DNA from: an uncultured Acidobacteriota bacterium
Lineage (GTDB): Bacteria; Acidobacteriota; Thermoanaerobaculia; Multivoradales; UBA5704
Direction of reading: 5' to 3'
DNA: 64,000 nt
Assembly (NCBI GenBank): GCA_963761805.1
Contig: CAVXIV010000003.1
Location: forward strand, 89,627-153,626
Of the stretch, positions 20 through 20,295 are shown one piece after another; position 1 is the first letter of the stretch; the number at the start of each line of letters is the position of its first letter. The notes under the pieces are model-generated. The model saw only the letters and a list, made by a program, of their open reading frames with translations, was not told the origin of the DNA and made no database searches. A program made the translations under genes and the position numbers.

Positions 20-1660
20 TCACCCCGCCGCCCGCTCCAGGATCCGCCCGAAGTCCGTCAGCGGCGGCAGGGTTCCGAACGCCCTGCCGCCGTCCCCGGC
101 GAGACGGCTGGCACAGAAGGCGTCGGCCACGTCCGCCGGGGCGTTCCGCAACAGGAGAGAGGCTTGCAGCGCCAGGGCCAGCCGCTCCACCAGGCGGCGG
201 GCGCGGGTCTCCAGATCGTCCAGGTTTTCCAGATTGGCCCGCAGCTCGTTCATATAGAGGTCGAGCCGGTGATCCGCGCCCCGGGCTTCCTGGATCTCCT
301 GGAACAGGGCGCCCAGCGAGTCGGGGGACTTCTGGAGGGCGCGCAGCACGTCCAGGCACTGCACGTTCCCCGAGCCTTCCCAGATCGAATTGAGCGGCGA
401 CTCGCGGTACAGGCGGGCCATCCCCCATTCCTCCACGTAGCCGTTGCCGCCCAGGCACTCCAGCGACTCGGCGGCGTGCACGGGGGCCCGCTTGCAGATC
501 CAGTACTTGAGGATGGCCGTGGCGAGGCGGCGGAACGGCGTCTCCGCCTCCGAATCGTAGGCGCGCGCGAGGCGCATCATCGCCACCGTCGCCGCCTCGG
601 ATTCGATCGCCAGGTCGGCCAGGACGTTGCGCATCAGCGGCTGATCGATCAGCAATTTCCCGAAGGCGCGGCGGTGGCGGGCGTGGTGGATCGCCCGCGC
701 CGTGCCGGCGCGCAGGCCGGCGGCGGAGCCGATCACGCAGTCGAGCCGCGTGTGCATCACCATCTCCAGGATCGTCGGCACGCCGCGCCCCTCTTCGCCC
801 ACGAGGCGCGCCCAGGCGGCGCGGAACTCCACCTCGCTGGAGGCGTTGGAGCGGTTGCCCAGCTTGTCCTTGAGGCGCTGGAGATGGAAACGGTTGCGCG
901 CGCCGTCCGGCGTGAAACGGGGGAGCAGGAAGCACGAGAGCCCGCCCGGCGCCTGCGCCAGGACCAGGAACGCGTCGCACATCGGCGCCGAGCAGAACCA
1001 CTTGTGGCCCGTGAGCTCGTATTCGCCGCCGCCGAGGGGACGCGCCTCGGTAGTGTTGGCCCGCACGTCCGAGCCGCCCTGCTTCTCGGTCATCGCCATG
1101 CCGCCGAGCGCGCCGGTCTTGCCGTCCGCCGGGATCAGGCGCGGATCGTAGACGGTCGACGTGAGGCGCGGCTCCCACTCCGCCGCCAGGTCGGGCTGGA
1201 GACGCAGGGCGGGGATGGCCGAGTAGGTCATGGAGAGCGGGCATCCCACGCCGGCCTCCACCTCGGCGAGCATGCGGAACATCGCCGCCCGGGCCACGTG
1301 GGCGCCCGGCCGCGGCTCGCGCCAGGGCATCCCGTGCAGCCCGTGCTCGACCCCCAGGGCCATGAGCGCGTGCCACGCGGGATGGAATTCGACCTCGTCG
1401 ATCCGTTCGCCGCGCGGGTCGTGGGTGCGGAGCCTGGGCGGGTTCTCGTTGGCCTCGAACCCCCACCGGATCGTCTCCCGCCGTCCCGCGGCCTCCCCGA
1501 ACCCCCGCGCCCGCTCCTCCGCCCACTCCGCTCCCTCGCGCCGCAGCGCCTCGACGAGGGCGGTGTCGGAGGTGAAGAGGTTGACGTCCTCGAAGGGAGG
1601 GGGCTGGTTGAGGACGGTGTGGGTGGCGTGGGCGACGGCGGTGTCGGCGAGGTGTTGCAT
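20..1660 (-). CDS. aidB: acyl-CoA dehydrogenase family protein, AidB-like
   Basis: 546-aa ORF. It is colinear by eye with E. coli AidB, with matching segments MTEKQGGSDV, HKWFCSAP, LKDKLGNRSNASSEVEF and YRESPLNSIWEGSGNVQCLDVLR. Confidence 0.85.
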   Translation of the reverse strand: MQHLADTAVAHATHTVLNQPPPFEDVNLFTSDTALVEALRREGAEWAEERARGFGEAAGRRETIRWGFEANENPPRLRTHDPRGERIDEVEFHPAWHALMALGVEHGLHGMPWREPRPGAHVARAAMFRMLAEVEAGVGCPLSMTYSAIPALRLQPDLAAEWEPRLTSTVYDPRLIPADGKTGALGGMAMTEKQGGSDVRANTTEARPLGGGEYELTGHKWFCSAPMCDAFLVLAQAPGGLSCFLLPRFTPDGARNRFHLQRLKDKLGNRSNASSEVEFRAAWARLVGEEGRGVPTILEMVMHTRLDCVIGSAAGLRAGTARAIHHARHRRAFGKLLIDQPLMRNVLADLAIESEAATVAMMRLARAYDSEAETPFRRLATAILKYWICKRAPVHAAESLECLGGNGYVEEWGMARLYRESPLNSIWEGSGNVQCLDVLRALQKSPDSLGALFQEIQEARGADHRLDLYMNELRANLENLDDLETRARRLVERLALALQASLLLRNAPADVADAFCASRLAGDGGRAFGTLPPLTDFGRILERAAG

Positions 1661-1804
1661 GGGGGTAAGGATACCTTCCCCTGGGACCGCCGGCGTCCCG
1701 CCGGCCTCTCTTCCTTAAAAGCTGATGAGCAGGCCGGCGGGACGCCGGCGGTCCCAGGGGGCCCGGGGCCTGATAATCTCTCCCTACACAACAGGAGACA
1801 TGCC

Positions 1805-2875
1805 GTGGCCATTCGTGAAGGCGCTTGGGATTGCCCCGCTTGCGGACGCAAGGGGAACCGTGGACCGGAGAAGTTTTGCGGCGGCTGTGGCAGCCCGCGC
1901 GGCCCGGAGGTGAAGTTCTACCTGCCGGAGGAGGCCGCCGAGGTGACCGACGCCGCGGCCCTCGAACTGGCCAAGACCGCTCCGGACTGGCACTGCCCCT
2001 ACTGCGACGCCGACAACCGCGACGCCAACGCCTTCTGCTCCGGTTGCGGCGCGCCCCGGGACGGCGCCGCCACCCGCCAGGTCGTCGAGCACCGCTTCGA
2101 CGCGCCTCCCCCGCCGCCGCCGCAACCCGTGAAGCCCCAGGAGCCGGGCAAGGGCGGCCTCCTCAAGAAGGGCTGCGCCATCGGCTGCCTGGGCCTCGTT
2201 CTCTTGTTCGGCCTCTTCTTCTGGCTGGGGCAGCCCAAGGCGAAGGACCTCACCGTCACCGGCCATCACTGGCTGCGCTCGATCCAGGTCGAAGAGCTGC
2301 GGCCGGTGCAGAAGCAGGCCTGGGAAGGCGAGCTCCCGAGCGGTGCCCGGACCCTCTCGAGCAGCCGCGAGGTCTTCCGCGTCAACAAGATCCAGACCGG
2401 TACCGAGACCCGCACCCGCACCGTCAGCGAGAGGGTCCAGACCGGCACCGAAAGGGTCCAGGTCGGCACCCGCGACCTCGGCAACGGCTACTTCGAGGAC
2501 GTCTACGAGGACCGTCCCGTCTACGAAACCCAAGAGCGGGAGGAGACCTACCAGGAGCCGGTCTACCGAGAGGAGCCCGTCTACCGCCAGCGCTACCGCT
2601 ACGAGGTCGACGAGTGGGTCCAGGACCGTGAAGCCAAGGCCGAGGGAGAGGATCTGTCGCCCGCCTGGCCCGATCCGGAGCTGGACGAGAACGAACGGGA
2701 GGGGGCGAAGAAGGAGGAGTACACCGTCCTCTTCCAGGACCCGGACGGCGAGTCCGCCCGCTACAAGGCGCCGGACGAGCAGACCTGGCGCGGCTTCGAG
2801 CCGGGGCGGACCTATCCAGGAAAGGTGAAGTCGGGCGGCGAAGTGGTGGAGATCGAAAACGCGCCGAAAAGGTAG
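1805..2875 (+). CDS. double zinc-ribbon membrane protein, function unknown
   Basis: GTG at 1805 lies 6 nt after AGGAGA (1793-1798). The protein has two CxxC..CxxC ribbons (CPACG..CGGCG and CPYCD..CSGCG), a Pro-rich linker, one TM helix (GCAIGCLGLVLLFGLFFWL) and an acidic Tyr/Glu-rich C-terminal region. The upstream part of ORF 164..2875 is the antisense shadow of aidB. Confidence 0.7.
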   Translation: MAIREGAWDCPACGRKGNRGPEKFCGGCGSPRGPEVKFYLPEEAAEVTDAAALELAKTAPDWHCPYCDADNRDANAFCSGCGAPRDGAATRQVVEHRFDAPPPPPPQPVKPQEPGKGGLLKKGCAIGCLGLVLLFGLFFWLGQPKAKDLTVTGHHWLRSIQVEELRPVQKQAWEGELPSGARTLSSSREVFRVNKIQTGTETRTRTVSERVQTGTERVQVGTRDLGNGYFEDVYEDRPVYETQEREETYQEPVYREEPVYRQRYRYEVDEWVQDREAKAEGEDLSPAWPDPELDENEREGAKKEEYTVLFQDPDGESARYKAPDEQTWRGFEPGRTYPGKVKSGGEVVEIENAPKR

Positions 2876-3473
2876 GAGGCGACCGCCCCGCCCGCGGTCG
2901 CCCGTTTCTGGCAGGAAAATCAGACTTCAATTGTCAAAGATCACGCGGGGAATCGGGATTGAACCCTGATTCCCCGGCCTCGTCCCCGAATATACGGACG
3001 GCCCCCGAGTCCGTCAATAATAATCTTGCCAAAAGCCCGTGGGATCTCGCCAAAAAGTCATTAAGTCGGACCAAAAGCTCTTTTGCTCCGGGCAAAAGAC
3101 CAATTGCCGAAGATAGTGGGTTTTTAGCGCGAGATTCCTCTTGCGCGCCGGACCGAAAGCTCTTTAGACTCCTTCCCGGTCGCATTGCCGCGAGGAAAAG
3201 ATCTTTATCAGTGACCGTGGAAGCTTTTCCGCGAGCAAAAGGGTATTACCTGCGGCCAAAAGAGTTTTTGGAACGGCCTGGGACTCATAGCTACGGGGAA
3301 GAGCTTCAGAACCGCGGCCGAAAAAGGAATAGCCGCGATCCCGAGGGGGAGCGCGGCGGGATCTTTGACAGACGAAGTACCTTTACGGGGCTCCCCGTCG
3401 TGGGCGGGGCGGGGGGCTCCGGATTTTTCTATGGGTGGGGAACGGTGCTGATAGGCGCCGTTCCGGGTTGATT

Positions 3474-3504
3474 CCGCCCCAGGTTGAAACCATGGGGCTA
3501 CCCA
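3474..3504. repeat. 29-nt palindromic element, left copy; its reverse complement recurs at 8636-8663
   Basis: ccgccccaggttgaaaccatggggctacc here matches ggtagccccaggtttcaacctggggcgg at 8636-8663 as its reverse complement, apart from a 2-nt indel. The core ccccagg..cctgggg can fold as a hairpin. Confidence 0.6.
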
Positions 3505-3572
3505 CGAATGTCCCTGAAGGGACGATCCAAACCAAACCTCCCGGCCATGGAGCATGCCATGGTCTCTGGGAC

Positions 3573-3784
3573 CGCCCGGAACGGGCGAAATTTGAATAGC
3601 CCGGCGCTTCAGCGCCGGGTAGGGGGGCCATCAAATTTCCATCCGCCCTGAATGGGCGGGACCCAACGGTTCAGCCAGCCGGAACGTCCGGTTCCGCCAC
3701 CTTCGGGGCGGGGATGGATAGGGGAGATCCCGTTGACCCGGCGCTAAAGCACCGGGCTATTCAGATTCCGCCCATTCTGGGCGG
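3573..3784. repeat. MITE-like composite repeat, left copy
   Basis: The unit is about 212 nt and is bounded by about 48-nt inverted repeats (ccgcccggaacgggcgaaatttgaatagcccggcgcttcagcgccggg at one end, cccggcgctaaagcaccgggctattcagattccgcccattctgggcgg at the other). It also has an internal hairpin ccgccctgaatgggcgg. The whole unit recurs in direct orientation at 8719-8932. Confidence 0.65.
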
Positions 3785-3805
3785 TCCAGGATGGGGCGAA
3801 ATTTC

Positions 3806-6800
3806 TCACGCCTTCGCCTGCACCCACGGCGGCACGGGCGGCAGATCGAAGAACGACGCGTCGTCCGGCAGCCGCAGACCGGGAACGAACTCATCGAGCT
3901 CGCCTACCTCGAACCGGCACAGGTTGATGGCATGCCAGAACCCGCCGGCGATCACGCCGCCGTATTTGTAGCGGCCATCCGGGGCGAAGGCGACCCAGCC
4001 CTCGGGGAGATGAACGAGAATGACGATGCAGCGGCCGGTGGCGACGTCCCAGAGGCGGACGGTGTTGTCGAAGGAGGCACTGGCAAGGGTGTTTCCCTCG
4101 GGGCTGAACACAACGCTTGAAACGCCCCCCTGGTGTCCTTGGAAAGCTTGGCTCTCTCGCCCGGAGGCGGTATCCCAAAGCCGCACGGTTTTGTCGTCGG
4201 ACGCGCTGGCGAGGGTGTTTCCCTCGGGGCTAAACACTACGCTATTGACGCCCTCCTGGTGTCCCTGGAAAGTTCGGACCTCCCGTCCGGAGGCGATCTC
4301 CCAAAGCCGCACGGTTTTGTCGTCGGATGCGCTGGCGAGGGTGTTTCCCTCGGGGCTAAACACCACGCTATAGACATGTCCTTCGTGTCGTTGGAAAGTC
4401 TGCATCTCTCGCCCGGAGGCAATGTCCCAAAGCCGCACGGTTTTGTCGTAGGAGGCGCTGGCGAGGTTCTTTCCGTTGGGGCTAAACGCCACGCTAGAGA
4501 CGCCCCCATGGTGTCCTTGGAAAGTCTGGATCTCTCGCCCCAAGGCAATGTCCCAAAGCCGCACGGTTTTGTCGTCGGATGCGCTGGCGAGGTTTTTTCC
4601 GTTGGGGCTAAACGCCACACTCCTTACGACGCTTTGGTGTCCTTGGAGAGCCCGGATCTCTTTCCCGGAGGCGGTGTCCCAGAGCCGGACGGTGTGGTCG
4701 TCGAAGGCGCTGGCGAGGGTATTTCCCTCAGGGTTAAATGCTACGCTCATAACCCAATCCTGGCGTACTTGGAAAGCCCGGATCTCTTGCCCGGACGCGA
4801 CATCCCAAAGATGTATAGTGTGGTCGTCGGATGCGCTGGCGAGGGTGTTTCCCTTGAGGGTAAAGGCCATGCTTCTGACGCCCCTTTCGTCTCCTTGGAA
4901 AACTCGGATCTCTCGCCCGGAGGCGATGTCCCAAAGACGCAGGGTGCTGTCGTTTGATGCGCTGGCGAGGGTGTTTCCGCCGGGGCTAAACGCCACGCTC
5001 CTCACATACCAGTAGTGTCCTCGGAAAGTCAGGATCTCTACCCCGGAGGCGGTGTCCCAAAGTCGGACGGTTTTGTCGTCAGATGCACTGGCGAGGATGT
5101 TTCCATTGGGACTGAACGTCACACTATTAACAGGAGCTAGGTGTCCTTGGAAATTCCGGATCTCTCGTCCGGAGGCGGTGTCCCAAAGCCGGACGGTTTT
5201 GTCGTCGGATGCGCTGGCGAGGGTATTTCCCTCGGGGCTAAACACTACGCTTCTGACCCAATCCTGGTGACCTCGGAAAGTCCGAATCTTTCGCCCGGAG
5301 GTGGTATCCCAAAGATGCACGGTGTTGTCGTAGGAGGTGCTGGCGAGGGTGTTTCCTGTGGGGCTAAACACCACGCTTAAAGAGCCTCCCAGGTGTCCTT
5401 GGAAAGCTCGGATCTCTCGTCCGGAGGCGGTGTCCCAAAGCCGGACGGTTTTGTCGTCGGATGCGCTGGCGAGGGTGTTTCCCTCGGGATTGAACACCAC
5501 GCTATTAACCCTCCCTAAGTGTCCTTGGAACGCCCGCATTTCTCGTCCGGAGGCGGTGTCCCAAAGCCGGACGGTTTTGTCATCGGATGCGCTGGCGAGG
5601 GTGTTTCCCTCGGGGCTAAACACCACGCTATTGACGGCTCCCTGGTGTCCTTGGAAAGCTCTGATCAGTTGTCCGCTGGAAGGATCCCAAAGCCGTATAA
5701 GGCCCCCTTCTGCGCTAGCCAGCAGGTCTCTTTTAGGATTCCAAGCCACGGCACTGGAAGGCGAGGAAAACAGGGTCATTCCTTCGGGTGCGTCAGGGAT
5801 TCGTAGAGCGGAGCCAAAGAAGTCGGCGGAGTCGGACTTTTCGTCGAGCGAGGCTCCTATCAGCTTTGCGCGCTCGAAAATCGCGTAACCGAGATCGGTT
5901 CCCCTAAGATCGGCCCCCAGGAGGCGTGCGCGAGTGAGATTGGCGTGCGCAAGGTCGGTTTGGCTTAGGTCGGCACGAGTGAGATCCGCGTCCCGGAGAT
6001 TGGCGTAAACGAGCCGTGCCCTGTGGAGACGGGTCCTGATCAACTTCGCGGAGCTTAGATTCGTTCGCTCCAGGTTCGCGTTTTCCAGATTCTGATCCGA
6101 GAGATCCTGGCCAGTGAGATTCTGGCCTGACAGATCTATGGCCTGATCAAGTTTTTCCTGAAGACGATCGAGGACCAGTAAAGCGTTTTTCTTGGGAATG
6201 TCATCGTTGCCCCGAGTCGTTTGGCGAGCCCAGGCAACGATGTTCTCTCTTCCGGTAAAGCTGGTCAGGAAATCGATCATCAGTAACGAGAGATCCTTCT
6301 CGCCCAGCAGGCTTGAGATGCCTTCCTTCTTGAGCCCCTCGGCTGCCGCCTGAGCCACGAGGAACTCCAGGATAGATTGGTGGAGGAAGGAAAAATTACC
6401 TTCGTCATCTCGGACGAGAAGAGTTCCAGAGCCTACCTGGAAAGCAGCAATCGCTTCATCGAAGACGCGATCGATTTTCTGGATCGCCTCGGCGGCATCC
6501 GCTTGGATCTCCTCCAGATTCACATAGCGATCCGTCTTCTGCCAGAGGCGAACGGCCAATAAGGTGACCGCGTTCCAGCGATCCTGCACGGAGAGGCCAG
6601 GAGGCGCTCCCTTGGGATGGACACGCTCAAATTCATGGACGAGCCAGCGCTCCAAGATGAGCCGGTAGAGCGTGGCCGCTGTAATTACTCCACCGGCAGC
6701 AGCCTCGCAGAGCTGCACCTCGGGAAGGTCGGCGATGAATCCCAGCATGCGGGGATTCTCGGAGAGCCCCAGGAGATCCTTGATGCTGTCAATCAGATTC

Positions 6801-8530
6801 AGCCTGGTGTCCGCTTCGGCTTCGCTCCCGCAGCGGTTGCCGAGGAAAGCACGGATCTGATCGCGGCTGAAGGTCTGGAGGATGCCGATTCTCGATCCTG
6901 AGATCAACTCGACTTCTTCGCCGAGCTTGGAACGGACCTGTTGGTCGGAAAGGAAGTGCTGACGGCGGCTGGTGACGACGATCTTGGCGTCACCCTGGGC
7001 GGCGGAGAGGAGGGTTTCGAAGTGCTCGGCGGCACGGTCGTACGTAACCCGCAAAGCAAGCTCGTCGAAGCCGTCGAAGAGGAGCACGATCCGGCCCTGC
7101 TCCAGCATGTAGCGGAATCTCTCGAAGCGGTAGCCCTCGGGTTCGTTCTGTCCGAAGTGCTGGCCGAGGAGCTGGGCCAGCGTACGGCCCTTTTCAAGGG
7201 ATCTCATCTGGAGGAGGATCGGGACCGGTCCCGATTCCAGGAGCCCCATGCGGCGCGCGAGCTCGTGCAGGAGGAAGGTCTTGCCCGTCCCGAAATCTCC
7301 CAGGATGACGGCGAAGCGCCGGTTGGGCGTGGAGAGCCACTCCTGAAGTTTCGCCAGGGCGTCCGGATGCTCTTCGTTCCGCTCCAGGGAGACCATCCGC
7401 TGGGTCACGTAGAGGCTGGGAGGGTAGAGCTTGTCCCGGGTCAGCTCTTCGGTCTGCCGGCGGAGATAGCCGCGGAAATCGATGAGGCCCATGTATTCGA
7501 TGAGGCTCATCAGGCGGACATCCCTGTTGCTGGCGACTTTCTGGAGGCCCTCCGGAGCCGGAGCGCCGCCGTAGATGAGATAGGAGATCATTCGGGGGTC
7601 GGCTGCGCGGAAGCCTTTATCGATCCGTTCGCGGAAGGCGTTCAGGTCTTCCAGAGAGACGTCATATTCGACGCCCGCGACCGGATAGTCCCGCACGATG
7701 TCTCCGTGCCGGACCGAGACCCGCAGGTAGTCCCAGAAGTCGCCTTCGCCCGAGATCCGCTCGATCTGCGCCGCGGGCTCCCGGAGACGGCAGACCCTCT
7801 CAACACGGGCGAGGAAGTCGTCCCGGATCTCGATAAAGGAGGGTTCGAGATCCTTTGAGGCCTTCGGCATGTAGTAGCCGCGGGTCCGTTTGGAAGAACG
7901 AACGGTGGTGGTCTCGATGACGGGCGCGGGCTCCGGTTCGGTGAAGGCGTTTGGAAATTTCTCGATGTCGAGAGGTGGGACAGCGGGTTCGAAAGGGGAG
8001 GATTCCGACGCGTCCACGATCCTCTTCGCGAAGGCGACGAGGAACTTTTGATAGGTGTCCTTCTGTTCGTCCAGACGCAGGAGGTATTGAAGCCCCTCGT
8101 TCCGGTAGGTCTCACCCAGATCGTCGAAGGAATATTGGATTTCGCGGAACTCCTTCGGGAGCGTCTCGAAGCTGGCGCCGAGGGGTTTCCAGAGGATGGG
8201 CAGGATGAGCTTGGGATTGGAGCCGTGAGAATCCAGGCGCGAGCGGAAGGCGGACCATTCCTTGCCGCAGTACTCGCTGTTGAAGAAGGAGCGGGAGTAG
8301 AGGGGAAGAAGGATCTGGCAGGTGGAGAGCGCCGAAGACAGCTCTTCGGGCCAACGGTCGCCGGTCTTGATTCCGTGGGTATCCCGGAAGCCTACGGGAT
8401 GGCTGGCTGAGAGGCCCATGAGGCCTCGGACTTCTTCGCGGATCTCCTGGAAGAAGCGGCCGAGGTGTTCGTCCGCGTCATTGCGGGCATAGCTGAAGAA
8501 GAAGATGGGACCGTCTTGTTTTAGGGTCAC
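3806..8530 (-). CDS. NLR-like STAND NTPase: TIR, unknown region, NACHT, pentapeptide repeats, 14 WD40 repeats
   Basis: 1574-aa ORF. Residues 7-140 form a TIR domain (FFFSYARND, SEYCGKEW with the conserved Glu). Walker A GDFGTGKT is at aa 411-418 and Walker B-like LLFDGFDE at aa 483-490 (NACHT). Residues about 798-895 carry roughly 19 pentapeptide repeats (ANLER/TNLSS/ADLTR and similar). Residues about 920-1530 form fourteen 42-aa WD40 units (GHxxxVxSVxFSPxGNTLASASDDKTVRLWD). Confidence 0.9.
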   Translation of the reverse strand: MTLKQDGPIFFFSYARNDADEHLGRFFQEIREEVRGLMGLSASHPVGFRDTHGIKTGDRWPEELSSALSTCQILLPLYSRSFFNSEYCGKEWSAFRSRLDSHGSNPKLILPILWKPLGASFETLPKEFREIQYSFDDLGETYRNEGLQYLLRLDEQKDTYQKFLVAFAKRIVDASESSPFEPAVPPLDIEKFPNAFTEPEPAPVIETTTVRSSKRTRGYYMPKASKDLEPSFIEIRDDFLARVERVCRLREPAAQIERISGEGDFWDYLRVSVRHGDIVRDYPVAGVEYDVSLEDLNAFRERIDKGFRAADPRMISYLIYGGAPAPEGLQKVASNRDVRLMSLIEYMGLIDFRGYLRRQTEELTRDKLYPPSLYVTQRMVSLERNEEHPDALAKLQEWLSTPNRRFAVILGDFGTGKTFLLHELARRMGLLESGPVPILLQMRSLEKGRTLAQLLGQHFGQNEPEGYRFERFRYMLEQGRIVLLFDGFDELALRVTYDRAAEHFETLLSAAQGDAKIVVTSRRQHFLSDQQVRSKLGEEVELISGSRIGILQTFSRDQIRAFLGNRCGSEAEADTRLNLIDSIKDLLGLSENPRMLGFIADLPEVQLCEAAAGGVITAATLYRLILERWLVHEFERVHPKGAPPGLSVQDRWNAVTLLAVRLWQKTDRYVNLEEIQADAAEAIQKIDRVFDEAIAAFQVGSGTLLVRDDEGNFSFLHQSILEFLVAQAAAEGLKKEGISSLLGEKDLSLLMIDFLTSFTGRENIVAWARQTTRGNDDIPKKNALLVLDRLQEKLDQAIDLSGQNLTGQDLSDQNLENANLERTNLSSAKLIRTRLHRARLVYANLRDADLTRADLSQTDLAHANLTRARLLGADLRGTDLGYAIFERAKLIGASLDEKSDSADFFGSALRIPDAPEGMTLFSSPSSAVAWNPKRDLLASAEGGLIRLWDPSSGQLIRAFQGHQGAVNSVVFSPEGNTLASASDDKTVRLWDTASGREMRAFQGHLGRVNSVVFNPEGNTLASASDDKTVRLWDTASGREIRAFQGHLGGSLSVVFSPTGNTLASTSYDNTVHLWDTTSGRKIRTFRGHQDWVRSVVFSPEGNTLASASDDKTVRLWDTASGREIRNFQGHLAPVNSVTFSPNGNILASASDDKTVRLWDTASGVEILTFRGHYWYVRSVAFSPGGNTLASASNDSTLRLWDIASGREIRVFQGDERGVRSMAFTLKGNTLASASDDHTIHLWDVASGQEIRAFQVRQDWVMSVAFNPEGNTLASAFDDHTVRLWDTASGKEIRALQGHQSVVRSVAFSPNGKNLASASDDKTVRLWDIALGREIQTFQGHHGGVSSVAFSPNGKNLASASYDKTVRLWDIASGREMQTFQRHEGHVYSVVFSPEGNTLASASDDKTVRLWEIASGREVRTFQGHQEGVNSVVFSPEGNTLASASDDKTVRLWDTASGRESQAFQGHQGGVSSVVFSPEGNTLASASFDNTVRLWDVATGRCIVILVHLPEGWVAFAPDGRYKYGGVIAGGFWHAINLCRFEVGELDEFVPGLRLPDDASFFDLPPVPPWVQAKA

Positions 8531-8635
8531 CTCGAAAAGTTAGCATCTGGAGGGCTGGGTTCCAAGGGGGCCGGCGCTCCGAGAGGGCCGGGAAGATTCC
8601 GGTCTGAGCCGTCCCGCCAGGGACAAGAGGCGGTA

Positions 8636-8663
8636 GCCCCAGGTTTCAACCTGGGGCGGGGAG
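8636..8663. repeat. 29-nt palindromic element, right copy (inverted relative to 3474-3504)
   Basis: ggtagccccaggtttcaacctggggcgg is the reverse complement of the element at 3474-3504. Confidence 0.6.
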
Positions 8664-8718
8664 GGCGGGGTGCCGCGCCGCCTCCGGACACCGCGCCTCC
8701 GGACGCCGGTCCCGGGAC

Positions 8719-8932
8719 CCGCCCGGAACGGGCGGAATTTGACTAGCCCGGCGCTTCAGCGCCGGGTAGGCGGTCCCCCCCAATTCTCATCCGCCCAGAA
8801 TGGGCGGGACCCAACCGTTCAGCCGGGTCGGACCGTCGTGTTCCGCCACCTTCGGGGTGGGGGATGGGGGGAGGGCGTCGGTGACCCGGCGCTGAAGCAC
8901 CGGGCTATTCAGATTCCGCCCATTCTGGGCGG
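8719..8932. repeat. MITE-like composite repeat, right copy (direct relative to 3573-3784)
   Basis: It has the same three sub-elements in the same order as 3573-3784: ccgcccggaacgggcggaatttgactagcccggcgcttcagcgccggg, then catccgcccagaatgggcgggacccaac, then cccggcgctgaagcaccgggctattcagattccgcccattctgggcgg. Identity to the left copy is roughly 85-90% by eye. Confidence 0.65.
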
Positions 8933-9125
8933 GCCTGAATGGGAGGGCGACGGTGTTCAGGCGGATGTGCCGGCCGGGGGCGGCGCGCCCTTCGAAGAGA
9001 CGCCTCGCCGTCCCCATGGCCTCCGCGAGGTGTCGTTGATCGTCTGAGGCGTCTCTACGGCCCTTCGGTGGAGGGGGGAGGTCATCGGATCGTTCTACGG
9101 CTCGGACCTCCTGTAGCATTCCTCC

Positions 9126-9878: not shown

Positions 9879-10069
9879 AGAAGCTACTTCCGGACGCCCG
9901 TAGCGCCCGGGCGGTACACTGAACAGCACAGAAAAACTTGCAGTTTCGCTCGGACCGCTGATTTCACGCCTCTGCGCACGCTCTTCTAGAACGCTGCGGG
10001 ATGGGCTACGATACGGGCCGCGTCGCGTTTCTACCCATCTTTTACAAGGAGAGTCGAGGTCACACCGAT

Positions 10070-11545
10070 ATGACGGATGTCGTCCAGAAGTTCTGGGGGT
10101 TCTGCCACACGCTGCGGCATGACGGCATCGATTACGGCGATTACATCGAGCAGATCACATATCTGCTCTTCCTCAAGATGGCGGACGAGCGGAGCATCGA
10201 TCTGAGCCGGATGTCGGTGCCGGAGGAAGGGGAGGCGGTCATCGATTGCTCATGGCCGGCGCTGGCGGCGGAGTCGGGTGCGAAGCTGACGGCGCACTAC
10301 GCCGGCGTGCTGCGGACGCTGGGACGCCAGCCGGGTCTGCTGCGAGAGATCTTCGCGGGCGCGTTGTCGCGCTTCAACAATCCCGCGAATCTGAAGCGTC
10401 TGATCGATCTGATCGATGAGACGGAGTGGAGCGCGCTGGAGATCGACCTCAAGGCCGCCGTCTTCGAAGGCCTGCTGGAGAAGGCCGCGAGCGAAGGGAA
10501 GAAGGGCGCCGGGCAGTACTTCACGCCGCGCCGCCTGATCCAGAGCATCGTGCGCTGCGTGCAGCCGGACCCGCGCGGGGAAGCGGACTTCACGATCTGC
10601 GATCCGGCGTGCGGCACCGGCGGTTTCCTGGTGGTGGCCTACGAATGGCTGCTGGCCGCGAGCCGCGAGGACTCCCCCGGTCCCGAGGTGCTGGAGAAGG
10701 TGCGGCGCGGCACGTACTACGGCCAGGAGCTGGTGCCCCGGCCGCGGCGGCTGGCGCTCATGAACCTGTTCCTGCACGGCCTCGAGCCGGAGATCAAGCA
10801 GGGCGATTCGATCTACGACCTGCCGGAAGACCACAGGTTCGACGTGGTGCTGACCAATCCGCCGTTCGGCAACAAGGGCGCGAACCAGGTGCCGGACCGC
10901 GAGGACCTGATCGTCAAGACGTCCAACAAGCAGCTCAATTTCCTGCAGCACGTGGTGACGATGCTGAAGCCGGGCGGCCGCGCGGCGGTGATCGTTCCGG
11001 ACAACTGCCTTTTCGCCGATCAGGCCGGCGAGGTGTTCAAGCTGTTGACGCAGGAGTGCGATCTCCACACGGTGCTGCGGCTGCCCAACGGCACGTTCAC
11101 TCCGTACAGCGCCGGGACCAAGACGAACGTGGTCTTCTTCAAGAAAGGCGCGCCGACGGAGACCGTCTGGGTTTACGACGCGCGCACCAACGTGCCACGG
11201 ATCACCAAAAAGGACCGGCCGCTGACGCAGTCGCATCTCGCCGCGTTCGAGGTCTGCTACGGCATCGACCCGAACGGCAAGTCGCGGCGCTCGCCGGCCG
11301 ATTCGCTGGAGGAGCGCTGGCGGTCGTTTTCGATCGCCGAGGTCCGCGCCCGCGATTTCAAGATCGACGGTCTGAAGTGGCTCAAGGAAGAGTCACGCGA
11401 CGATGATCTGCCGGAACCCGAGGAGCTCGCGGAGGATGCCATCAATGAATTGGAGCGCGCAGTGGACGAATTGACGGCTGTGCTCGACTTGCTGGCGGAT
11501 GACGTAGAGCCGAGGCGCCCGCGCGTCCTCCCGGGTGGCGCGTGA
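10070..11545 (+). CDS. hsdM: Type I restriction-modification system DNA methyltransferase subunit
   Basis: The N-terminus MTDVVQKFWGFCHTLRHDGIDYGDYIEQITYLLFLKMADE parallels the EcoKI HsdM start. SAM motif I is DPACGTGGFL and catalytic motif IV is NPPFG. An alternative upstream start exists at 10001. Confidence 0.9.
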   Translation: MTDVVQKFWGFCHTLRHDGIDYGDYIEQITYLLFLKMADERSIDLSRMSVPEEGEAVIDCSWPALAAESGAKLTAHYAGVLRTLGRQPGLLREIFAGALSRFNNPANLKRLIDLIDETEWSALEIDLKAAVFEGLLEKAASEGKKGAGQYFTPRRLIQSIVRCVQPDPRGEADFTICDPACGTGGFLVVAYEWLLAASREDSPGPEVLEKVRRGTYYGQELVPRPRRLALMNLFLHGLEPEIKQGDSIYDLPEDHRFDVVLTNPPFGNKGANQVPDREDLIVKTSNKQLNFLQHVVTMLKPGGRAAVIVPDNCLFADQAGEVFKLLTQECDLHTVLRLPNGTFTPYSAGTKTNVVFFKKGAPTETVWVYDARTNVPRITKKDRPLTQSHLAAFEVCYGIDPNGKSRRSPADSLEERWRSFSIAEVRARDFKIDGLKWLKEESRDDDLPEPEELAEDAINELERAVDELTAVLDLLADDVEPRRPRVLPGGA

Positions 11546-13671
11546 GCACGGCGTTTTCCGATTGGGAGCTCGGACGCCGCGAAGGCGAGCTTCCCGACGG
11601 CTGGGCGACGACGACGCTCGGCGACATCGTCGTCCATCGCATCGGCGGCGAGTGGGGCGAGAGCCCGGAAACGGTGGCGGCGGACGATCCGGAGTACGTC
11701 CGGGTGCGCGTGATCCGCGGCACGCAGTTCCGGGACTGGGAGCGCGACAAGGGCTCGACGGCGGACGTGCGGGCGGTCAAGCGGTCGAAGCTGGCGAAGC
11801 GCCTGCTGGTCGAAGGGGACTTGGTGGTGGAGATCTCCGGCGGCGGGGCCAGCCAGCCGGTGGGCCGCACGTTGCTGATCGACGAGGAAGCGCTCCGCCG
11901 CGCCGGCATGCCGCTGATCTGCAGCAACTTCTGCCGTCTGGTGAGACTCCACCGCGAGGTCGATCCCGCGTACGTCCACCTGGTCCTTACGTTCCAGTAC
12001 CTGTGCGGCCGGTTCGACGAGTTGCAGACGCAGACGACGAACATCCGCAACCTGAATTTCGACGATTTCCTGGCGAACGTGATCCTGCCGTTGCCGCCGC
12101 TGGCGGAGCAGCGGCGGATCGTCGCGAAAGTCCGCAAGCTCCAGAAACCGGTGGGCACGGCTCGCAAGTGCCTCGCGAAGATGCCGGAGATCCTGCGGCG
12201 CTTCCGCCAGTCGGTGCTCGCCGCGGCGTTCGCGGGCCGGCTGACGGAGAGCTGGCGCGAAGGGCGCCCGCCGGCCGAGTCCCTGGAGGAGAAGCTGCGG
12301 CTGGCGTTCAAGACGCGCCGCGAGGCGTGGGAGATGGCGCGCGAGGAGGCGGAGGCTTTCGACCGCCGGGCGCCGCGCCGGCCGAAGAACCTGGAGCCCA
12401 CGCCGTGGGAGGCGCCGGAGCCGCTGGAGGAGCCGAAGACGCCGGACGGCTGGCTCCTCGTGGCGCTGCACGACGTGGTGCATCGCGCCCAGTACGGACT
12501 CTCCACCAAGGCGGACGCCAACGAGAAGACCGGTATCGCGATCCTGCGCATGGCGAACATCCAGGACGGCCGGATCGACACCTCGGATCTCAAATACATC
12601 CGGCGCAAGGGCCTGGACGTCCAGGGCTACATGGTGCGGCAGGGGGACATCCTGTTCAACCGCACGAACAGCCCGGAGCTGGTGGGCAAGGCCGCGGTGT
12701 TCGACGCCAGCCTCGAGGCGGTGTTCGCTTCCTACGTGGTGCGCGTGGAGTGCGACGAGCGGCTGATCGACAGCCGGTACCTGTGCTGGTGGATCAATTC
12801 GCCGTGGGGCCGGCGGTGGGCGCGCACGGTGCGCACGGAGAGCGTCAGCCAGTCGAACATCAACATTTCGCGGCTGGTGACGATGCCAGTGCCGTTCCCG
12901 CCCCTGGAGGAGCAGCGGCGGATCGTGGAGCGCATCGAGGCGTTTTTCGCCGACGCCGCGAGCGTCGAGGCGAAGGTGGCCTCGTCGGCGGAGCGGGCGG
13001 AGAAGCTGTGGATGACGATCCTGGTGCGGGCGCTGCGCGGTGAGCTGGTGCCGAACGAGGCGGAGATCTCCGGTCCCGAGGGCGGAGGCTTCGAGCCGGC
13101 GGCGGACCTGTTGGACCGGATCGTCGGGGAGCGGCTGGCTTCGCGGCCCGAGAGGATGGAAGCGGTGAGCCCGGAGGAGGGCGTCGCCGAGCCGATCCTG
13201 GCCGCCATCCGCCAGTCCTGCTGGGGCGCCGGCACGATGACCCGCGAGGAGCTGATCCGGAAGGTGGCGGTGCGGCTGGGCTGCCCGCGCTTCGGCAAGA
13301 GCATCCGGGCCCGGCTGGAGCGCCACGTGGAGGTGGCCCTGGCGCGGCGGATCGTGGAGGTCAAGGACGGCCTGCTGTGCGGCGCCACTCCGACCTTCGC
13401 GCGCTACGACTGGAACTTCCTGGTGCGGACGGTCCGCTCCCTGCTGAAGGACGGGGTGGAGCGCAACACCGGGGAGCTGATCAACGCCATGGCCGCCTAT
13501 CTGGGCTACGGGCAGGTCACCATGCCGATCCGCGAGCGCACGGAGCGGATCCTGACCTGGGCGTCCCAGAACGGGCTGGTGGAGATGCGGGAAGGGAAGG
13601 TCCAGCGCACCCCCGGGCTTCCCCCGGCCCCGCCTTTCCCCAACGATCCGGCGCGGCGGGGGCGGAAGTAG
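11542..13671 (+). CDS. hsdS: Type I restriction-modification specificity subunit with a C-terminal extension of about 200 aa
   Basis: The GTG start overlaps the hsdM stop (GTGA). There are two target-recognition halves, each followed by the conserved helix (LPLPPLAEQRRIVAKVRKL and VPFPPLEEQRRIVERIEAFF). The canonical HsdS ends near aa 505, and an extra helical region follows up to aa 709. Confidence 0.85.
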   Translation: MSTAFSDWELGRREGELPDGWATTTLGDIVVHRIGGEWGESPETVAADDPEYVRVRVIRGTQFRDWERDKGSTADVRAVKRSKLAKRLLVEGDLVVEISGGGASQPVGRTLLIDEEALRRAGMPLICSNFCRLVRLHREVDPAYVHLVLTFQYLCGRFDELQTQTTNIRNLNFDDFLANVILPLPPLAEQRRIVAKVRKLQKPVGTARKCLAKMPEILRRFRQSVLAAAFAGRLTESWREGRPPAESLEEKLRLAFKTRREAWEMAREEAEAFDRRAPRRPKNLEPTPWEAPEPLEEPKTPDGWLLVALHDVVHRAQYGLSTKADANEKTGIAILRMANIQDGRIDTSDLKYIRRKGLDVQGYMVRQGDILFNRTNSPELVGKAAVFDASLEAVFASYVVRVECDERLIDSRYLCWWINSPWGRRWARTVRTESVSQSNINISRLVTMPVPFPPLEEQRRIVERIEAFFADAASVEAKVASSAERAEKLWMTILVRALRGELVPNEAEISGPEGGGFEPAADLLDRIVGERLASRPERMEAVSPEEGVAEPILAAIRQSCWGAGTMTREELIRKVAVRLGCPRFGKSIRARLERHVEVALARRIVEVKDGLLCGATPTFARYDWNFLVRTVRSLLKDGVERNTGELINAMAAYLGYGQVTMPIRERTERILTWASQNGLVEMREGKVQRTPGLPPAPPFPNDPARRGRK

Positions 13672-18856: not shown

Positions 18857-20281
18857 TTATCGAGTAGCCGTCTTCTTCGGAGCCGCGAACCTGTCGCGGA
18901 TCCACTTCGCCACCAGGTCGAGCATGGCGGGATCCATGGTGACCTCGCTGGCCGCGTATTCGGCCGGGCTGCCGGTCTTGGCGGGCTGGAAGAGGTGGTT
19001 GAGGCCGGGCAGGCGGCGGATGGTCACGTCCGGGTTGCCGGCCTCCTTCAGCGCCTTTTCGATCTCGGGGATGTTCTGGTCCGCGATCACCTGGAGGTCG
19101 AGCTCGCCGTTGACGACCAGCACCGGAACCTTGACCTTGCGCAGGGCCGGCCGCGGGTCGTAGTCGAGGAAGTAGCGGAACCAGTTGGAGGTCGCCCTCT
19201 TCACCTGTGCGTCGATCATGTCGTCGCCGCCGGCCTGCTCCTCCGGGCTCTGCAGGGCCAGAGCCTCCTTGCTGAGTTGCCGCAGCTTGGCATCGCGGAC
19301 GGCGGGGTCCTTTTCGGTGCGGATGAGCTCGAGGCTCTGGCGCATGATCGCGTCTTCGCGCTTGATGTTCTCCTCCGGCATCCCGCCGGCGCGGGAGATG
19401 CGCTCGCTCTGGAGGGAGAGGACCTCCGCGCCGGGGACGCCGGTGCCCGCGAGCATCACCACGAAGGCCACGTCCGTGGACTGGCTGGCGGCGAGCGGCC
19501 CCACCACCCCGCCCTCGCTATGGCCCACGAGGCCGACGCGGTCCGGGGCGATCTTCGCGTGCTTTTTGAGGAACCGTACGCCGGCCAGAGCATCCTGCGC
19601 GAAGTCGGCGGTGGTGGATTCGTCGACGCTGCCGGTCGAGCCGCCGACGCCGCGGTCGTCCACCCGCAGCACGGCGATGCCGTTGCGGGTCAGGTAATCG
19701 GAGAGCACCAGGAACGGCTTGTGGCCCAGGAGCGCCTCATCGCGGTCCTGCGGGCCGCTGCCGGTGATGAGCAGCGCGGCGGGGAAGGGGCCGGGGCCCT
19801 CCGGGATCGTGAGCGTGCCGGCGAGCTTGATGTCGCCGTTGGTGTAGGTGACCTCTTCGGAGATGTAGGGAAGCGGCGGCTTGGGCTCCTGCGGCTTGCG
19901 CGCCACCTCGACGGCCTCGCGGCCCAGGCGGAACGGCAGCGAGGCGCTCCCCTGCGTAAAGGTGCCGCGGATGGCGCCGTTCTCCAGCGTGCCGTCGAAG
20001 GTCGGCGCGCCGGGGATGTTCGCGATGGCGAAGCGCACCTTGGAGCCCTCGACCGTGATCCCCTCCAGGGGCAGGTCCTTGGCGCCTTGCTGCGGGATGT
20101 CGATGTCCCCTTTCCAGGCGCCGTTCTCCCAGGTCAGGTCGACCATGACCTGGAGCTTCATCGAGGGGAGCTCGATCTCGCCCTCCCAGTGGCCCGCCGC
20201 CGGGGAATCGGCGGCCTGGACGGCACTGGGGACAGTCATGGGGACGAGGATCAGCAGACAGAGAAGAAGGATGGAACGCAT
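18857..20281 (-). CDS. exported alpha/beta hydrolase
   Basis: ATG at 20281 follows GGAGG. The protein has a signal peptide MRSILLLCLLILVPMTVPSAVQA and a GHSEGG nucleophile elbow. The upstream part of ORF 18857..21136 is Arg/Pro-rich shadow. Confidence 0.8.
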   Translation of the reverse strand: MRSILLLCLLILVPMTVPSAVQAADSPAAGHWEGEIELPSMKLQVMVDLTWENGAWKGDIDIPQQGAKDLPLEGITVEGSKVRFAIANIPGAPTFDGTLENGAIRGTFTQGSASLPFRLGREAVEVARKPQEPKPPLPYISEEVTYTNGDIKLAGTLTIPEGPGPFPAALLITGSGPQDRDEALLGHKPFLVLSDYLTRNGIAVLRVDDRGVGGSTGSVDESTTADFAQDALAGVRFLKKHAKIAPDRVGLVGHSEGGVVGPLAASQSTDVAFVVMLAGTGVPGAEVLSLQSERISRAGGMPEENIKREDAIMRQSLELIRTEKDPAVRDAKLRQLSKEALALQSPEEQAGGDDMIDAQVKRATSNWFRYFLDYDPRPALRKVKVPVLVVNGELDLQVIADQNIPEIEKALKEAGNPDVTIRRLPGLNHLFQPAKTGSPAEYAASEVTMDPAMLDLVAKWIRDRFAAPKKTATR

Positions 20282-20295
20282 TTCGGTCCTCCGTA

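What the first reader, a model, noticed from the sequence alone, without database searches (positions are those of the whole stretch)
3940..5770. WD40 blades are near-identical at the DNA level with an exact 126-nt period and localised variable positions
The string gagggtgtttccctcggggctaaacac(c/t)acgct recurs at 4211, 4337, 5219, 5345, 5471 and 5597, or close variants of it do. All of these offsets are exact multiples of 126 nt. At the protein level the blades share SV(V/A)FSP(E/N)GNTLASASDDKTVRLWD(T/I)ASGREI. Differences cluster in the 3-4 residues after the leading GH (QGA, LGR, QDW, LAP, YWY, ERG, QSV, HGG, EGH, QEG) and at a few other sites. Fungal NLRs with highly internally conserved WD40 repeats show this pattern. 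There it reflects repeat shuffling or concerted evolution with diversification of the ligand-binding surface. Here it suggests a rapidly evolving recognition surface. It also makes this region prone to assembly collapse.
Basis: partly seen in the sequence, partly recalled or inferred. Interest (0 to 1): 0.6.

Follow-up and report, generated by a model that had tools for sequence, protein, structure and literature searches.

The report
Repeated WD40 blades, bacterial NLR sensor
The repeat is the sensor end of a bacterial immune-receptor-like (NLR-type) gene: 14 WD40 blades copied from one 126-nt unit and since diverged to about 77% DNA identity, a moderately aged example of an already described phenomenon.

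Summary
The periodicity is real. Window 4013-5776 (minus strand) holds 14 WD40 blades of exactly 126 nt with no indels, inside one 1574-aa ORF (3806-8530). "Near-identical" is overstated: blades 2-14 average 77% nt and 68% aa identity (maximum 88% nt), and blade 1 is about 40%. The protein is TIR / inactive-REase / NACHT / pentapeptide / WD40, an NLR-like STAND NTPase next to type I R-M genes. AlphaFold2 gives a confident double propeller, closest to Nostoc WRAP (2YMU). Variation is concentrated in the top-face d-a and b-c loops and the outer strand d; strands b and c are nearly invariant. dN/dS does not exceed 1. Blade distances fit a star tree (R2 0.86), so one amplification followed by divergence fits better than ongoing shuffling. 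DNA-level kinship is real (74% identical codons at identical residues versus 43% expected). The array falls just below both published "highly repetitive" thresholds. The only ortholog stops after four blades, and its blades show no positional orthology. Synonymous divergence jumps threefold at codon ~489, which suggests the sensor half was exchanged by recombination. Verdict: a new member of a known kind.

The parts
3806..8530 (-). Whole gene: 1574-aa NLR-like STAND NTPase (GTG start, stop at 3806-3808)
   Evidence: ORF list and translation. The same start and 83% identity in ortholog P0001.
8003..8509 (-). N-terminal TIR-like effector domain (aa 8-176)
   Evidence: Pfam TIR_2, 40.6 bits against cut-off 28. 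NCBIfam FxsC_Nterm, 154 bits against cut-off 130. Catalytic competence was not tested, and no solved relative was found by sequence.
7475..7825 (-). NACHT-associated inactive restriction-endonuclease domain (aa 236-352)
   Evidence: Pfam PF22739 NA-iREase3, E 4e-30, 105 bits.
6848..7351 (-). NACHT NTPase core (aa 394-561), with GDFGTGKT (Walker A) and LLFDGFDE (Walker B)
   Evidence: Pfam NACHT, 34.1 bits against cut-off 26.7, with weaker nSTAND1 and NPHP3_N hits. Motifs read from the translation.
7050..7080 (-). Approximate recombination breakpoint (codon ~489) where synonymous divergence from the ortholog jumps
   Evidence: Maximum chi-square 90.3 at codon 489. The synonymous-difference rate is 0.16 on the 5' side and 0.47 on the 3' side, permutation p <= 0.001. 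GC3 falls from about 0.8 to about 0.6 after codon 600 in both genes. dS by domain is.
5837..6187 (-). Pentapeptide-repeat region (aa ~782-898) between the NACHT module and the propellers
   Evidence: Pfam Pentapeptide, 95 bits, 5 stretches. NCBIfam pentapeptide families hit below their cut-offs.
5651..5776 (-). WD40 blade 1 (aa 919-960): divergent edge blade, about 40% nt identical to the others, conserved across family members
   Evidence: (75% nt identical to the ortholog's blade 1).
4139..5650 (-). WD40 blades 2-13: twelve 126-nt units that form the similar core of the array
4013..4138 (-). WD40 blade 14 (aa 1465-1506): most divergent of the similar blades (64-73% nt), the 3' edge of the array
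   Evidence: It has the longest star-tree branch, 0.267.
3809..4012 (-). C-terminal tail (aa 1507-1574): a 15th, non-repeat four-stranded blade (aa ~1511-1541), then a low-confidence (pLDDT < 50), probably disordered end. Conserved in the family.
   Evidence: The AF2 model has 60 strands, which makes 15 blades, and pLDDT below 50 for the last 48 residues. The tail is 66-76% identical to distant family members.

Best explanation
The 126-nt repeat encodes the sensor of a single-gene, NLR-like STAND immune receptor of a Thermoanaerobaculia-like bacterium. The domain order is TIR effector, inactive REase, NACHT NTPase, pentapeptide beta-helix, then 14 WD40 blades plus one non-repeat closing blade, folding as a 7+8 double beta-propeller.

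Origin of the array (inferred from sequence). One 42-codon blade was amplified in tandem between an older first blade and an older C-terminal blade. The copies then diverged to about 77% nt identity. Strands b and c and the DHSW-type scaffold were held constant. Substitutions accumulated in the d-a loop (positions 3-5 and 7), the b-c loop (23, 25) and the exposed strand d. A few later local events followed: the adjacent pair 10/11, and the QDW motif shared by blades 5 and 9. Relatives made their own arrays independently. The whole sensor half (from about codon 489 onward) has a different history from the effector half and was probably exchanged by homologous recombination.

Function (inferred by analogy, not shown here). 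A foreign or stress-related protein binds the variable top face of the propellers. This releases autoinhibition, and the NACHT module oligomerises with bound nucleotide. The clustered TIR domains then consume or convert NAD+ and stop the infected cell.
For: Architecture: Pfam and NCBIfam hits above their cut-offs for TIR_2/FxsC_Nterm, NA-iREase3, NACHT, Pentapeptide and WD40.

Fold: AF2 mean pLDDT is 87.6 with 15 four-stranded blades and a confidence dip at the blade 7/8 junction. The best structural and sequence match is 2YMU, the STAND-linked 14-blade WRAP propeller of Nostoc, followed by Apaf-1.

Common descent of the blades at DNA level: period exactly 126 nt with no indels. The identical-codon fraction at identical residues is 0.744, against 0.425 expected from the gene's own codon usage and 0.569 against the ortholog's blades.

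Burst plus divergence: a star tree explains 86% of the distance variance. There is no decay of similarity with blade distance. Only pairs 10/11 and 5/9 are clearly closer than the star expectation.

Surface-biased variation: entropy is 1.71 in the d-a loop, 0.97 in the b-c loop and 1.19 in strand d, against 0.30 in strands b and c. Top loops versus the rest give Mann-Whitney p = 0.0098.

Lineage-specific arrays: each relative has a private scaffold, and the nearest blade lies in the same protein for 13/14 blades here, 7/7 in P0068 and P0117, and 6/7 in P0043. First blades are conserved across proteins.

Sensor exchange: dS is 0.13 in the flanking hsdM/hsdS genes, 0.23-0.28 in TIR and iREase, and 1.2-1.6 in the helical, pentapeptide and blade-1 regions, with dN/dS 0.05-0.24 throughout. 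The breakpoint test gives chi-square 90, p <= 0.001, together with a GC3 step.

Context: the gene lies next to type I R-M genes in a locus whose content differs from the sister genome. Family members swap TIR, PNP_UDP and metallophosphoesterase heads on the same NACHT-pentapeptide-WD40 body, as described for bacterial NACHT proteins (bioRxiv 10.1101/2022.07.19.500537).
Against: No experiment or characterised close homolog ties this protein to defence. PADLOC finds no system model, and NCBIfam antiphage NACHT models score far below their cut-offs. TIR catalytic residues were not verified.

A single burst cannot be cleanly separated from old concerted evolution. A Sawyer-type run test is significant (p = 0.0005), and 54% of informative site pairs are incompatible. 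Both could reflect conversion, although clustering of the hypervariable codons confounds the run test.

Only one ortholog exists and it is truncated, so the lack of positional orthology could partly reflect decay in that copy.

The dS step is inferred from one pair of sequences, and no donor allele was found.

Confidence: 0.65

Rival explanations
1. Ongoing concerted evolution as in the fungal HNWD genes (HET-E, HET-D, HET-R). Blades are continually reshuffled by unequal crossing-over and gene conversion, while positive selection diversifies four or so contact residues per blade. This would be the first reader's reading.
For: The edge blades (1 and 14) are the most divergent, as expected when unequal exchange homogenises the interior. 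Relatives have private scaffolds. Similarity does not decay with blade distance. Long shared tracts exist: 68 nt between blades 3 and 5, and 49 nt between blades 2 and 12, with a run test p = 0.0005. Non-adjacent blades 5 and 9 share QDW at hypervariable positions. The ortholog has a different blade count. The literature proposes this regime for bacterial NLR repeats (bioRxiv 10.1101/2020.01.06.895854).
Against: No pair of blades is closer than 0.25 at third positions, and mean dS is 0.49, so nothing has been homogenised recently. The PHI test is not significant (p = 0.6, 0.6 and 0.08). The star tree fits well. dN/dS is at most 1 even at sites chosen for being variable. Identity is below the 85% fungal criterion. 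No second WD40 gene is present in the window to exchange with. No closer alleles were found.
Confidence: 0.22
2. The blades are ancient and are kept similar only by strong purifying selection on a very stable scaffold with dense DHSW hydrogen-bond tetrads, without recent duplication or exchange.
For: Hu et al. 2017 (PMC5587647) found a minority of such cases and linked high repetitiveness to stability. dN/dS in the scaffold codons is low, 0.30.
Against: Synonymous sites are far from saturated (dS about 0.49). Identical codons are used at 74% of identical residues against 43% expected from codon usage. The period is exact with no indels. Relatives carry different private scaffolds.
Confidence: 0.05
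3. Assembly artefact: the array is a collapsed or chimeric reconstruction of a repeat, and its blade number and order are not real.
For: In the family, 25 of 63 blade-bearing hits end inside the array at a contig end, and 28 have four or fewer blades plus an intact tail. The ortholog's contig ends 111 nt after its array.
Against: All 14 units are in frame with no stop. With the tail blade they give 15 blades that fold confidently as 7+8. The longest exact inter-blade tract is 68 nt, and every blade is unique.
Confidence: 0.04

Closest known systems
[quoted passage not shown] 2019, PMC6805158; Pereira & Lupas 2022, PMC9218822, both citing Dunin-Horkawicz et al. 2014)
   Same: It is a C-terminal array of 14 similar 42-residue WD40 blades on a STAND NTPase, folding as two propellers. 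It is the best sequence and fold match. It is associated with TIR and with proposed prokaryotic innate immunity. Relatives have disrupted or truncated arrays, as the ortholog does here.
   Different: WRAP blades are practically identical, with 13 nonsynonymous and no synonymous changes. Here identity is 77% nt with dS about 0.49. In WRAP the TIR sits on a neighbouring STAND protein; here it is fused. This protein also has iREase and pentapeptide modules and a NACHT-type NTPase.
Fungal HNWD/NWD NLRs (HET-E, HET-D, HET-R of Podospora) with highly internally conserved WD repeats (PMC4986451)
   Same: The layout is NACHT plus WD40 with unusually similar 42-aa repeats. The variable residues lie in loops of the interaction face, and repeat number differs between alleles or orthologs.
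   Different: Fungal repeats are about 85% or more identical, with documented repeat-number polymorphism, exchange between paralogs and positive selection at four positions. Here identity is lower, no paralog or allele series is available, and omega does not exceed 1.
Bacterial NACHT (bNACHT) antiphage proteins (Kibby et al., bioRxiv 10.1101/2022.07.19.500537) and defence-associated STANDs with Apaf-1-like WD40 sensors (PMC13581612)
   Same: The organisation is tripartite: effector, NACHT, repeat sensor. The effector set (TIR, PNPase, calcineurin-like phosphoesterase) and the sensor types (beta-propeller, pentapeptide) match the family recovered here.
   Different: None of the experimentally tested bNACHT proteins is a close homolog. 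PADLOC and NCBIfam antiphage models do not reach threshold.
Moderately and highly repetitive prokaryotic WD40 proteins (Hu et al. 2017, PMC5587647)
   Same: This is the same class of observation: prokaryotic WD40 proteins whose blades are much more alike than usual, with low inter-repeat dS taken to mean young duplications.
   Different: By their measure this protein scores 0.64, which is 'moderately repetitive' and not HR (>= 0.70).

Membership tests
NLR-like STAND NTPase (bacterial NACHT protein) | NACHT-type P-loop NTPase domain with Walker A and Walker B motifs | tested here: met
   Pfam NACHT scores 34.1 bits against cut-off 26.7. GDFGTGKT and LLFDGFDE motifs are present.
NLR-like STAND NTPase (bacterial NACHT protein) | Tripartite layout: N-terminal effector, central NTPase, C-terminal repeat sensor | tested here: met
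   TIR_2/FxsC_Nterm at aa 8-176, NACHT at aa 394-561, pentapeptide plus WD40 from aa 782 to 1541.
NLR-like STAND NTPase (bacterial NACHT protein) | Ligand-triggered, nucleotide-dependent oligomerisation and a defence phenotype | not testable with these tools
   This needs biochemistry and phage assays. PADLOC has no matching system model.
Highly Repetitive WD40 (Hu et al. 2017) | At least 6 of 8 contiguous repeats with all pairwise identities >= 0.70 | tested here: not met
   The best value is 0.64, which puts it in the 'moderately repetitive' class (>= 0.40).
Fungal-type highly internally conserved NLR repeats (Dyrka et al. 2014) | More than 85% identity between repeats over at least 100 aa | tested here: not met
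   The best 100-aa shifted self-identity is 0.84 (blades 2-4 against 12-14), which is borderline.
Fungal-type highly internally conserved NLR repeats (Dyrka et al. 2014) | Positive selection at a few positions on the interaction surface | tested here: inconclusive
   Variation is enriched in the top loops (p = 0.0098). Pooled dN/dS is 0.60 at the sites chosen beforehand and 0.99 at sites chosen afterwards. No codon model that allows for recombination was run.
Fungal-type highly internally conserved NLR repeats (Dyrka et al. 2014) | Repeat-number polymorphism and shuffling among alleles or paralogs | tested here: inconclusive
   There is only one ortholog. It has 4 blades and then a stop at a contig end, with no positional orthology. 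No closer alleles were found, and there is no paralog in the window.
WRAP-like recently amplified propellers (Lupas group) | Tandem WD40 blades derived from one blade, on a STAND protein, forming closed propellers | tested here: met
   Exact 126-nt period, shared codons, confident AF2 double propeller, and 2YMU as the best match.
WRAP-like recently amplified propellers (Lupas group) | Very recent amplification: near-identity and few or no synonymous differences | tested here: not met
   Identity is 77% nt, dS is about 0.49, and the minimum third-position distance is 0.25.
TIR NADase effector | TIR fold with a catalytic glutamate and NAD+ cleavage | not tested
   Domain models pass their cut-offs. 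An SEYCGKEW motif resembles the S-x-W-C-x-x-E region from memory only. No solved relative was available for alignment.

The most novel reading that the evidence does not exclude
The bacterial NLR sensor may be modular at two scales, and both may be exchanged in nature. First, the whole sensor half (post-NACHT helices, pentapeptide repeats and propellers) appears to have been swapped by recombination just after Walker B between otherwise near-identical genomes. This would act like an allelic 'sensor cassette' on a constant effector/NTPase head. Second, blade number in the family falls into three classes (3, 7 or 13-14 repeats). With the closing tail blade, which was modelled only for this protein, these would be 4, 8 and about 15 blades. 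The 4-blade forms (including one from an isolate genome, Beggiatoa alba) might complete an 8-bladed propeller only in trans on oligomerisation. The top-face triplets after GH would then be the specificity code.
Probability: 0.2. Interest if true: 0.55.

Novelty: new member of a known kind. Interest (0 to 1): 0.3.

Why it matters
This is a clean, intact 15-blade example of a STAND/NLR-type receptor from an Acidobacteriota (Thermoanaerobaculia) lineage, a group not highlighted for such arrays in the surveys consulted here. Its repeat array is old enough to show where substitutions accumulate after a blade amplification: the top-face loops and the outer strand. It therefore sits between the just-amplified WRAP propeller and ordinary, fully diverged WD40 domains. 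The comparison with the sister genome adds a testable point: the sensor half evolves by replacement (dS step at codon ~489) while the effector half and flanking genes stay nearly identical. None of this changes current understanding. It supports published ideas about rapid turnover of bacterial NLR sensors.

Tried and rejected
1. Exact-product look-up of the window protein found nothing on record.
2. The metagenome scan with the N-terminal 917 aa found only distant TIR-domain relatives and no alleles. The genome scan gave one true ortholog.
3. PADLOC gave no defence-system model, only a WD40-driven hit and a weak mad8 hit.
4. The PHI test for recombination among blades was not significant. The Sawyer-type run test was significant but judged confounded by the clustering of hypervariable codons, so it was not used as proof of gene conversion.
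5. I looked for 7-blade periodicity (duplication of a whole propeller) and for decay of similarity with distance. Neither was present.
6. I looked among 120 family members for a donor of the sensor half. The ortholog remains the nearest for every segment.
7. A search with the WD40 region found only generic multi-WD40 proteins at 34-57% identity, with no shared near-identical blades elsewhere.
8. A PDB sequence search with the TIR region gave only noise.
9. There are no tRNA genes, and no transposase or integrase was seen among the ORFs scanned near the gene, so no mobile-element boundary was identified.
Full report
**1. What is at the coordinates**

The window is about 70% G+C, falling to 59-60% across 4-8 kb. 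One long minus-strand ORF, 3806-8530 (1574 aa, GTG start), covers the finding. Tandem Repeats Finder reports one array at 4035-5666: period 126, 13.0 copies, 78% matches, 0% indels, score 1692. An independent repeat search gives 12 in-register copies, all spaced exactly 126 nt.

Counted against the fixed 33-mer with C at the c/t position, it has 2-3 mismatches at 5219, 5345 and 5471, and 3 at 4085 and 4967. It has 5-6 mismatches at 4463, 4589, 4715 and 4841. Every offset is a multiple of 126.

In protein register the array is 14 units of 42 aa (aa 919-1506, window 4013-5776).

**2. How similar the blades are**

Blades 2-14 average 77% nt identity (range 64-88%) and 68% aa identity. Blade 1 is about 40% nt identical to the rest, and blade 14 is the outlier among the similar ones. 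"Near-identical" is therefore an overstatement.

The DNA-level relatedness is nevertheless real. At positions where two blades have the same residue they use the same codon 74.4% of the time. The gene's own codon usage predicts 42.5%, and the figure against the ortholog's blades is 56.9%. Pooled Nei-Gojobori dS among blades is 0.49.

The array misses both published thresholds. By the Hu et al. 2017 definition (PMC5587647) the internal identity is 0.64, which is "moderately repetitive" and below their 0.70 cut-off for "highly repetitive". The best 100-aa self-identity is 0.84, just under the 85% criterion used for fungal NLRs (PMC4986451).

The longest exact tract shared by two blades is 68 nt. 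That is shorter than a typical short read (my estimate), so assembly collapse is not a serious concern here.

**3. What the gene is**

Pfam and NCBIfam give the following domains:

- TIR_2 / FxsC_Nterm, aa 8-176
- NA-iREase3, aa 236-352
- NACHT, aa ~394-561, with Walker A GDFGTGKT and Walker B LLFDGFDE
- pentapeptide repeats, aa ~782-898
- WD40 repeats

AlphaFold2 on aa 905-1574, with a 33-sequence alignment, gives mean pLDDT 87.6. The model has 60 strands, which makes 15 four-stranded blades: the 14 repeats plus a non-repeat blade at aa ~1511-1541. Confidence dips at the blade 7/8 junction, which implies a 7+8 double propeller. The C-terminal end has low confidence and is probably disordered.

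The best match in the PDB, by sequence (E 7e-173) and by fold (E 1e-58, 46% identity), is 2YMU. This is the "highly repetitive propeller" WRAP of Nostoc punctiforme, itself the C-terminus of a STAND ATPase. Apaf-1 also matches.

The gene is thus an NLR-like STAND receptor. Its architecture matches the bacterial NACHT classes with TIR, PNPase or phosphoesterase effectors and beta-propeller or pentapeptide sensors described by Kibby et al. (bioRxiv 10.1101/2022.07.19.500537).

**4. Where the variation sits**

From the model's DSSP, with the G of GH as position 1 of the 42-aa unit:

| Element | Positions | Face (textbook WD40 topology) |
|---|---|---|
| d-a loop | 1-5 | top |
| strand a | 6-11 | |
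| a-b loop | 12-16 | bottom |
| strand b | 17-22 | |
| b-c loop | 23-25 | top |
| strand c | 26-31 | |
| c-d loop | 32-36 | bottom |
| strand d | 37-42 | outer rim |

Mean residue entropy is 1.71 in the d-a loop, 0.97 in the b-c loop and 1.19 in the outer strand d. It is 0.30 in strands b and c. Top loops versus the rest give Mann-Whitney p = 0.0098. Positions 3, 4, 5, 7, 23 and 25 hold 33% of all pairwise differences against 14% expected, and strand d holds 22%.

However, the same positions are also the undetermined ones in the consensus of 32 unrelated multi-WD40 proteins. They are simply the free positions of this WD40 type.

dN/dS is 0.45 overall, 0.60 at the six top-face codons chosen beforehand, and 0.99 at codons picked for being variable. 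There is no evidence for omega above 1.

**5. How the array arose**

A star tree explains 86% of the variance in pairwise distance. Branches are short for blades 2, 3, 5, 11 and 13 and long for 4, 6, 8, 9 and 14. Only the adjacent pair 10/11 and the pair 5/9 (which share QDW) are robustly closer than the star expectation. Similarity does not decay with blade distance, and there is no offset-7 signal.

A run-length test is significant (p = 0.0005). It is confounded by the clustering of the hypervariable codons, and the PHI test is not significant.

The closest pair of blades still differs by 0.25 at third positions. That is more than the dS of 0.13 between this genome and its sister in the flanking genes, so nothing has been homogenised recently.

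The simplest reading is one amplification from a single blade followed by divergence and a few local events. This is the model the Lupas group proposes for WD40 propellers (PMC9218822, PMC6805158). Continuing fungal-style shuffling fits less well.

**6. Relatives**

A search with aa 201-917 finds 244 proteins at E below 1e-10. They share the iREase-NACHT-pentapeptide(-WD40) body and carry TIR, PNP_UDP or metallophosphoesterase heads.

Among those with repetitive arrays, each has a private blade scaffold...GEHLHTLE in P0068...GARRHTLK in P0043...GDHRRTLE in P0004, and ...GREIRAFQ here. A blade's nearest neighbour lies in the same protein for 13/14 blades (window), 7/7 (P0068 and P0117) and 6/7 (P0043). 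The first blade is divergent within each protein but conserved between proteins. Entropy profiles correlate (Spearman 0.52, p = 4e-4). The C-terminal tail is 66-76% identical even to distant members.

Blade renewal is therefore a recurring, lineage-specific process in this family, confined between fixed edge blades. This is already stated in general terms for bacterial NLRs (bioRxiv 10.1101/2020.01.06.895854; PMC5587647; PMC9218822).

**7. The ortholog and the locus**

Only one true ortholog was found, in a Thermoanaerobaculia MAG contig (L001/P0001). The flanking genes (hsdM, hsdS and others) are 92.5-94.7% nt identical, but the NLR gene is only 82.8% identical.

The ortholog stops after four blades (...RLRNIPSSCIEKTV*), 111 nt before the contig end. 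The sequence after the stop has no significant match in the window (only 11-12-nt chance matches). Its blades 2-4 are only 54-63% alike. Its blade 2 is no closer to the window's blade 2 (75%) than to blades 3, 5, 12 (75%) or 13 (78%), so there is no positional orthology.

Synonymous divergence is strongly non-uniform:

| Region | dS |
|---|---|
| Flanks (hsdM, hsdS) | 0.13 |
| TIR / iREase | 0.23-0.28 |
| NACHT | 0.54 |
| Post-NACHT helices, pentapeptide, blade 1 | 1.2-1.6 |

dN/dS is 0.05-0.24 throughout. A maximum chi-square scan places the change at codon ~489 (window ~7065): the synonymous-difference rate is 0.16 on the 5' side and 0.47 on the 3' side, chi-square 90, p <= 0.001. GC3 also steps from about 0.8 to about 0.6 in both genes. 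The best explanation is recombinational replacement of the sensor half in one lineage. No donor was found.

The gene is compositionally atypical, with GC3 0.72 against 0.87-0.94 in its neighbours. The sister genome carries an extra ATPase_2/DUF234 gene immediately upstream that the window lacks.

**8. Mechanism**

Shown here: the architecture, the fold, the common descent of the blades, the surface-biased variation and the mosaic history.

Inferred by analogy with NLRs, Apaf-1 and bNACHT proteins: ligand binding on the propeller top face, NTP-dependent oligomerisation, TIR activation and growth arrest. Nothing here tests function. PADLOC and NCBIfam antiphage models do not reach threshold, and TIR catalytic residues were not verified.

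**9. Verdict**

It is not supported on near-identity, on ongoing shuffling, on positive selection, or on a high risk of assembly collapse at this locus. This is a new, moderately aged member of a known kind (STAND-linked amplified WD40 propellers). The synonymous-divergence step, pointing to sensor-half exchange, is the most interesting by-product.

Noticed in passing
window 3806-8530 versus L001 10001-13255; breakpoint near window 7065: Synonymous divergence between the gene and its only ortholog jumps about threefold at codon ~489, just after Walker B. dS is 0.23-0.28 on the 5' side and 1.2-1.6 on the 3' side, against 0.13 in the flanks. GC3 steps from about 0.8 to about 0.6. This suggests the sensor half was replaced by recombination.
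   Followed up: partly
L001 12751-13366: The ortholog's WD40 array ends in a stop codon after four blades, with a one-codon deletion in blade 3. The contig ends 111 nt later, and the sequence after the stop has no significant match in the window. This could be a truncation, an insertion or an assembly break; it is unresolved.
   Followed up: partly
L001 8437-9954; window 8574-9098: The sister genome has a 505-aa ATPase_2 + DUF234 gene directly upstream of the NLR gene. The window has only about 525 nt of unalignable sequence there, so gene content varies at this spot.
   Followed up: partly
window 10001-13671: Type I restriction-modification genes hsdM (10001-11545) and hsdS (11542-13671) lie next to the NLR gene. 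No hsdR was recognised among the neighbouring ORFs that were scanned.
   Followed up: partly
window 20296-23130 (-): A 944-aa protein with a C-terminal CHAT (caspase-like protease) domain lies beyond two S9/S15-type peptidase genes (16335-18068 and 18857-21136).
   Followed up: no
family proteins (e.g. P0075 Beggiatoa alba, P0011): Twenty-eight relatives have only 1-4 detected blades followed by the intact conserved C-terminal tail. One is from an isolate genome, and its two inner blades are too different to have been collapsed. Seven-blade and 13-14-blade forms also exist. If the tail adds one closing blade, as in the window's model, the totals would be about 4, 8 and 15 blades.
   Followed up: partly
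window 3806-8530: The gene's GC3 (0.72, and 0.67 in the WD40 part) is far below that of its neighbours (hsdM 0.87, hsdS 0.94, the aidB-like gene 0.93). This is consistent with foreign origin of the gene.
   Followed up: partly
window 2420-2470 and 8679-8708: There are two small tandem repeats, with periods of 21 nt (2.4 copies) and 15 nt (2 copies). The second lies in the region just upstream of the NLR start codon.
   Followed up: no
window 1661-3805: About 2.1 kb between the aidB-like gene (20-1660, minus strand) and the NLR stop codon has no Pfam-recognisable ORF among the seven tested, and its G+C (0.64 for 2001-4000) is lower than the window's typical ~0.70.
   Followed up: partly
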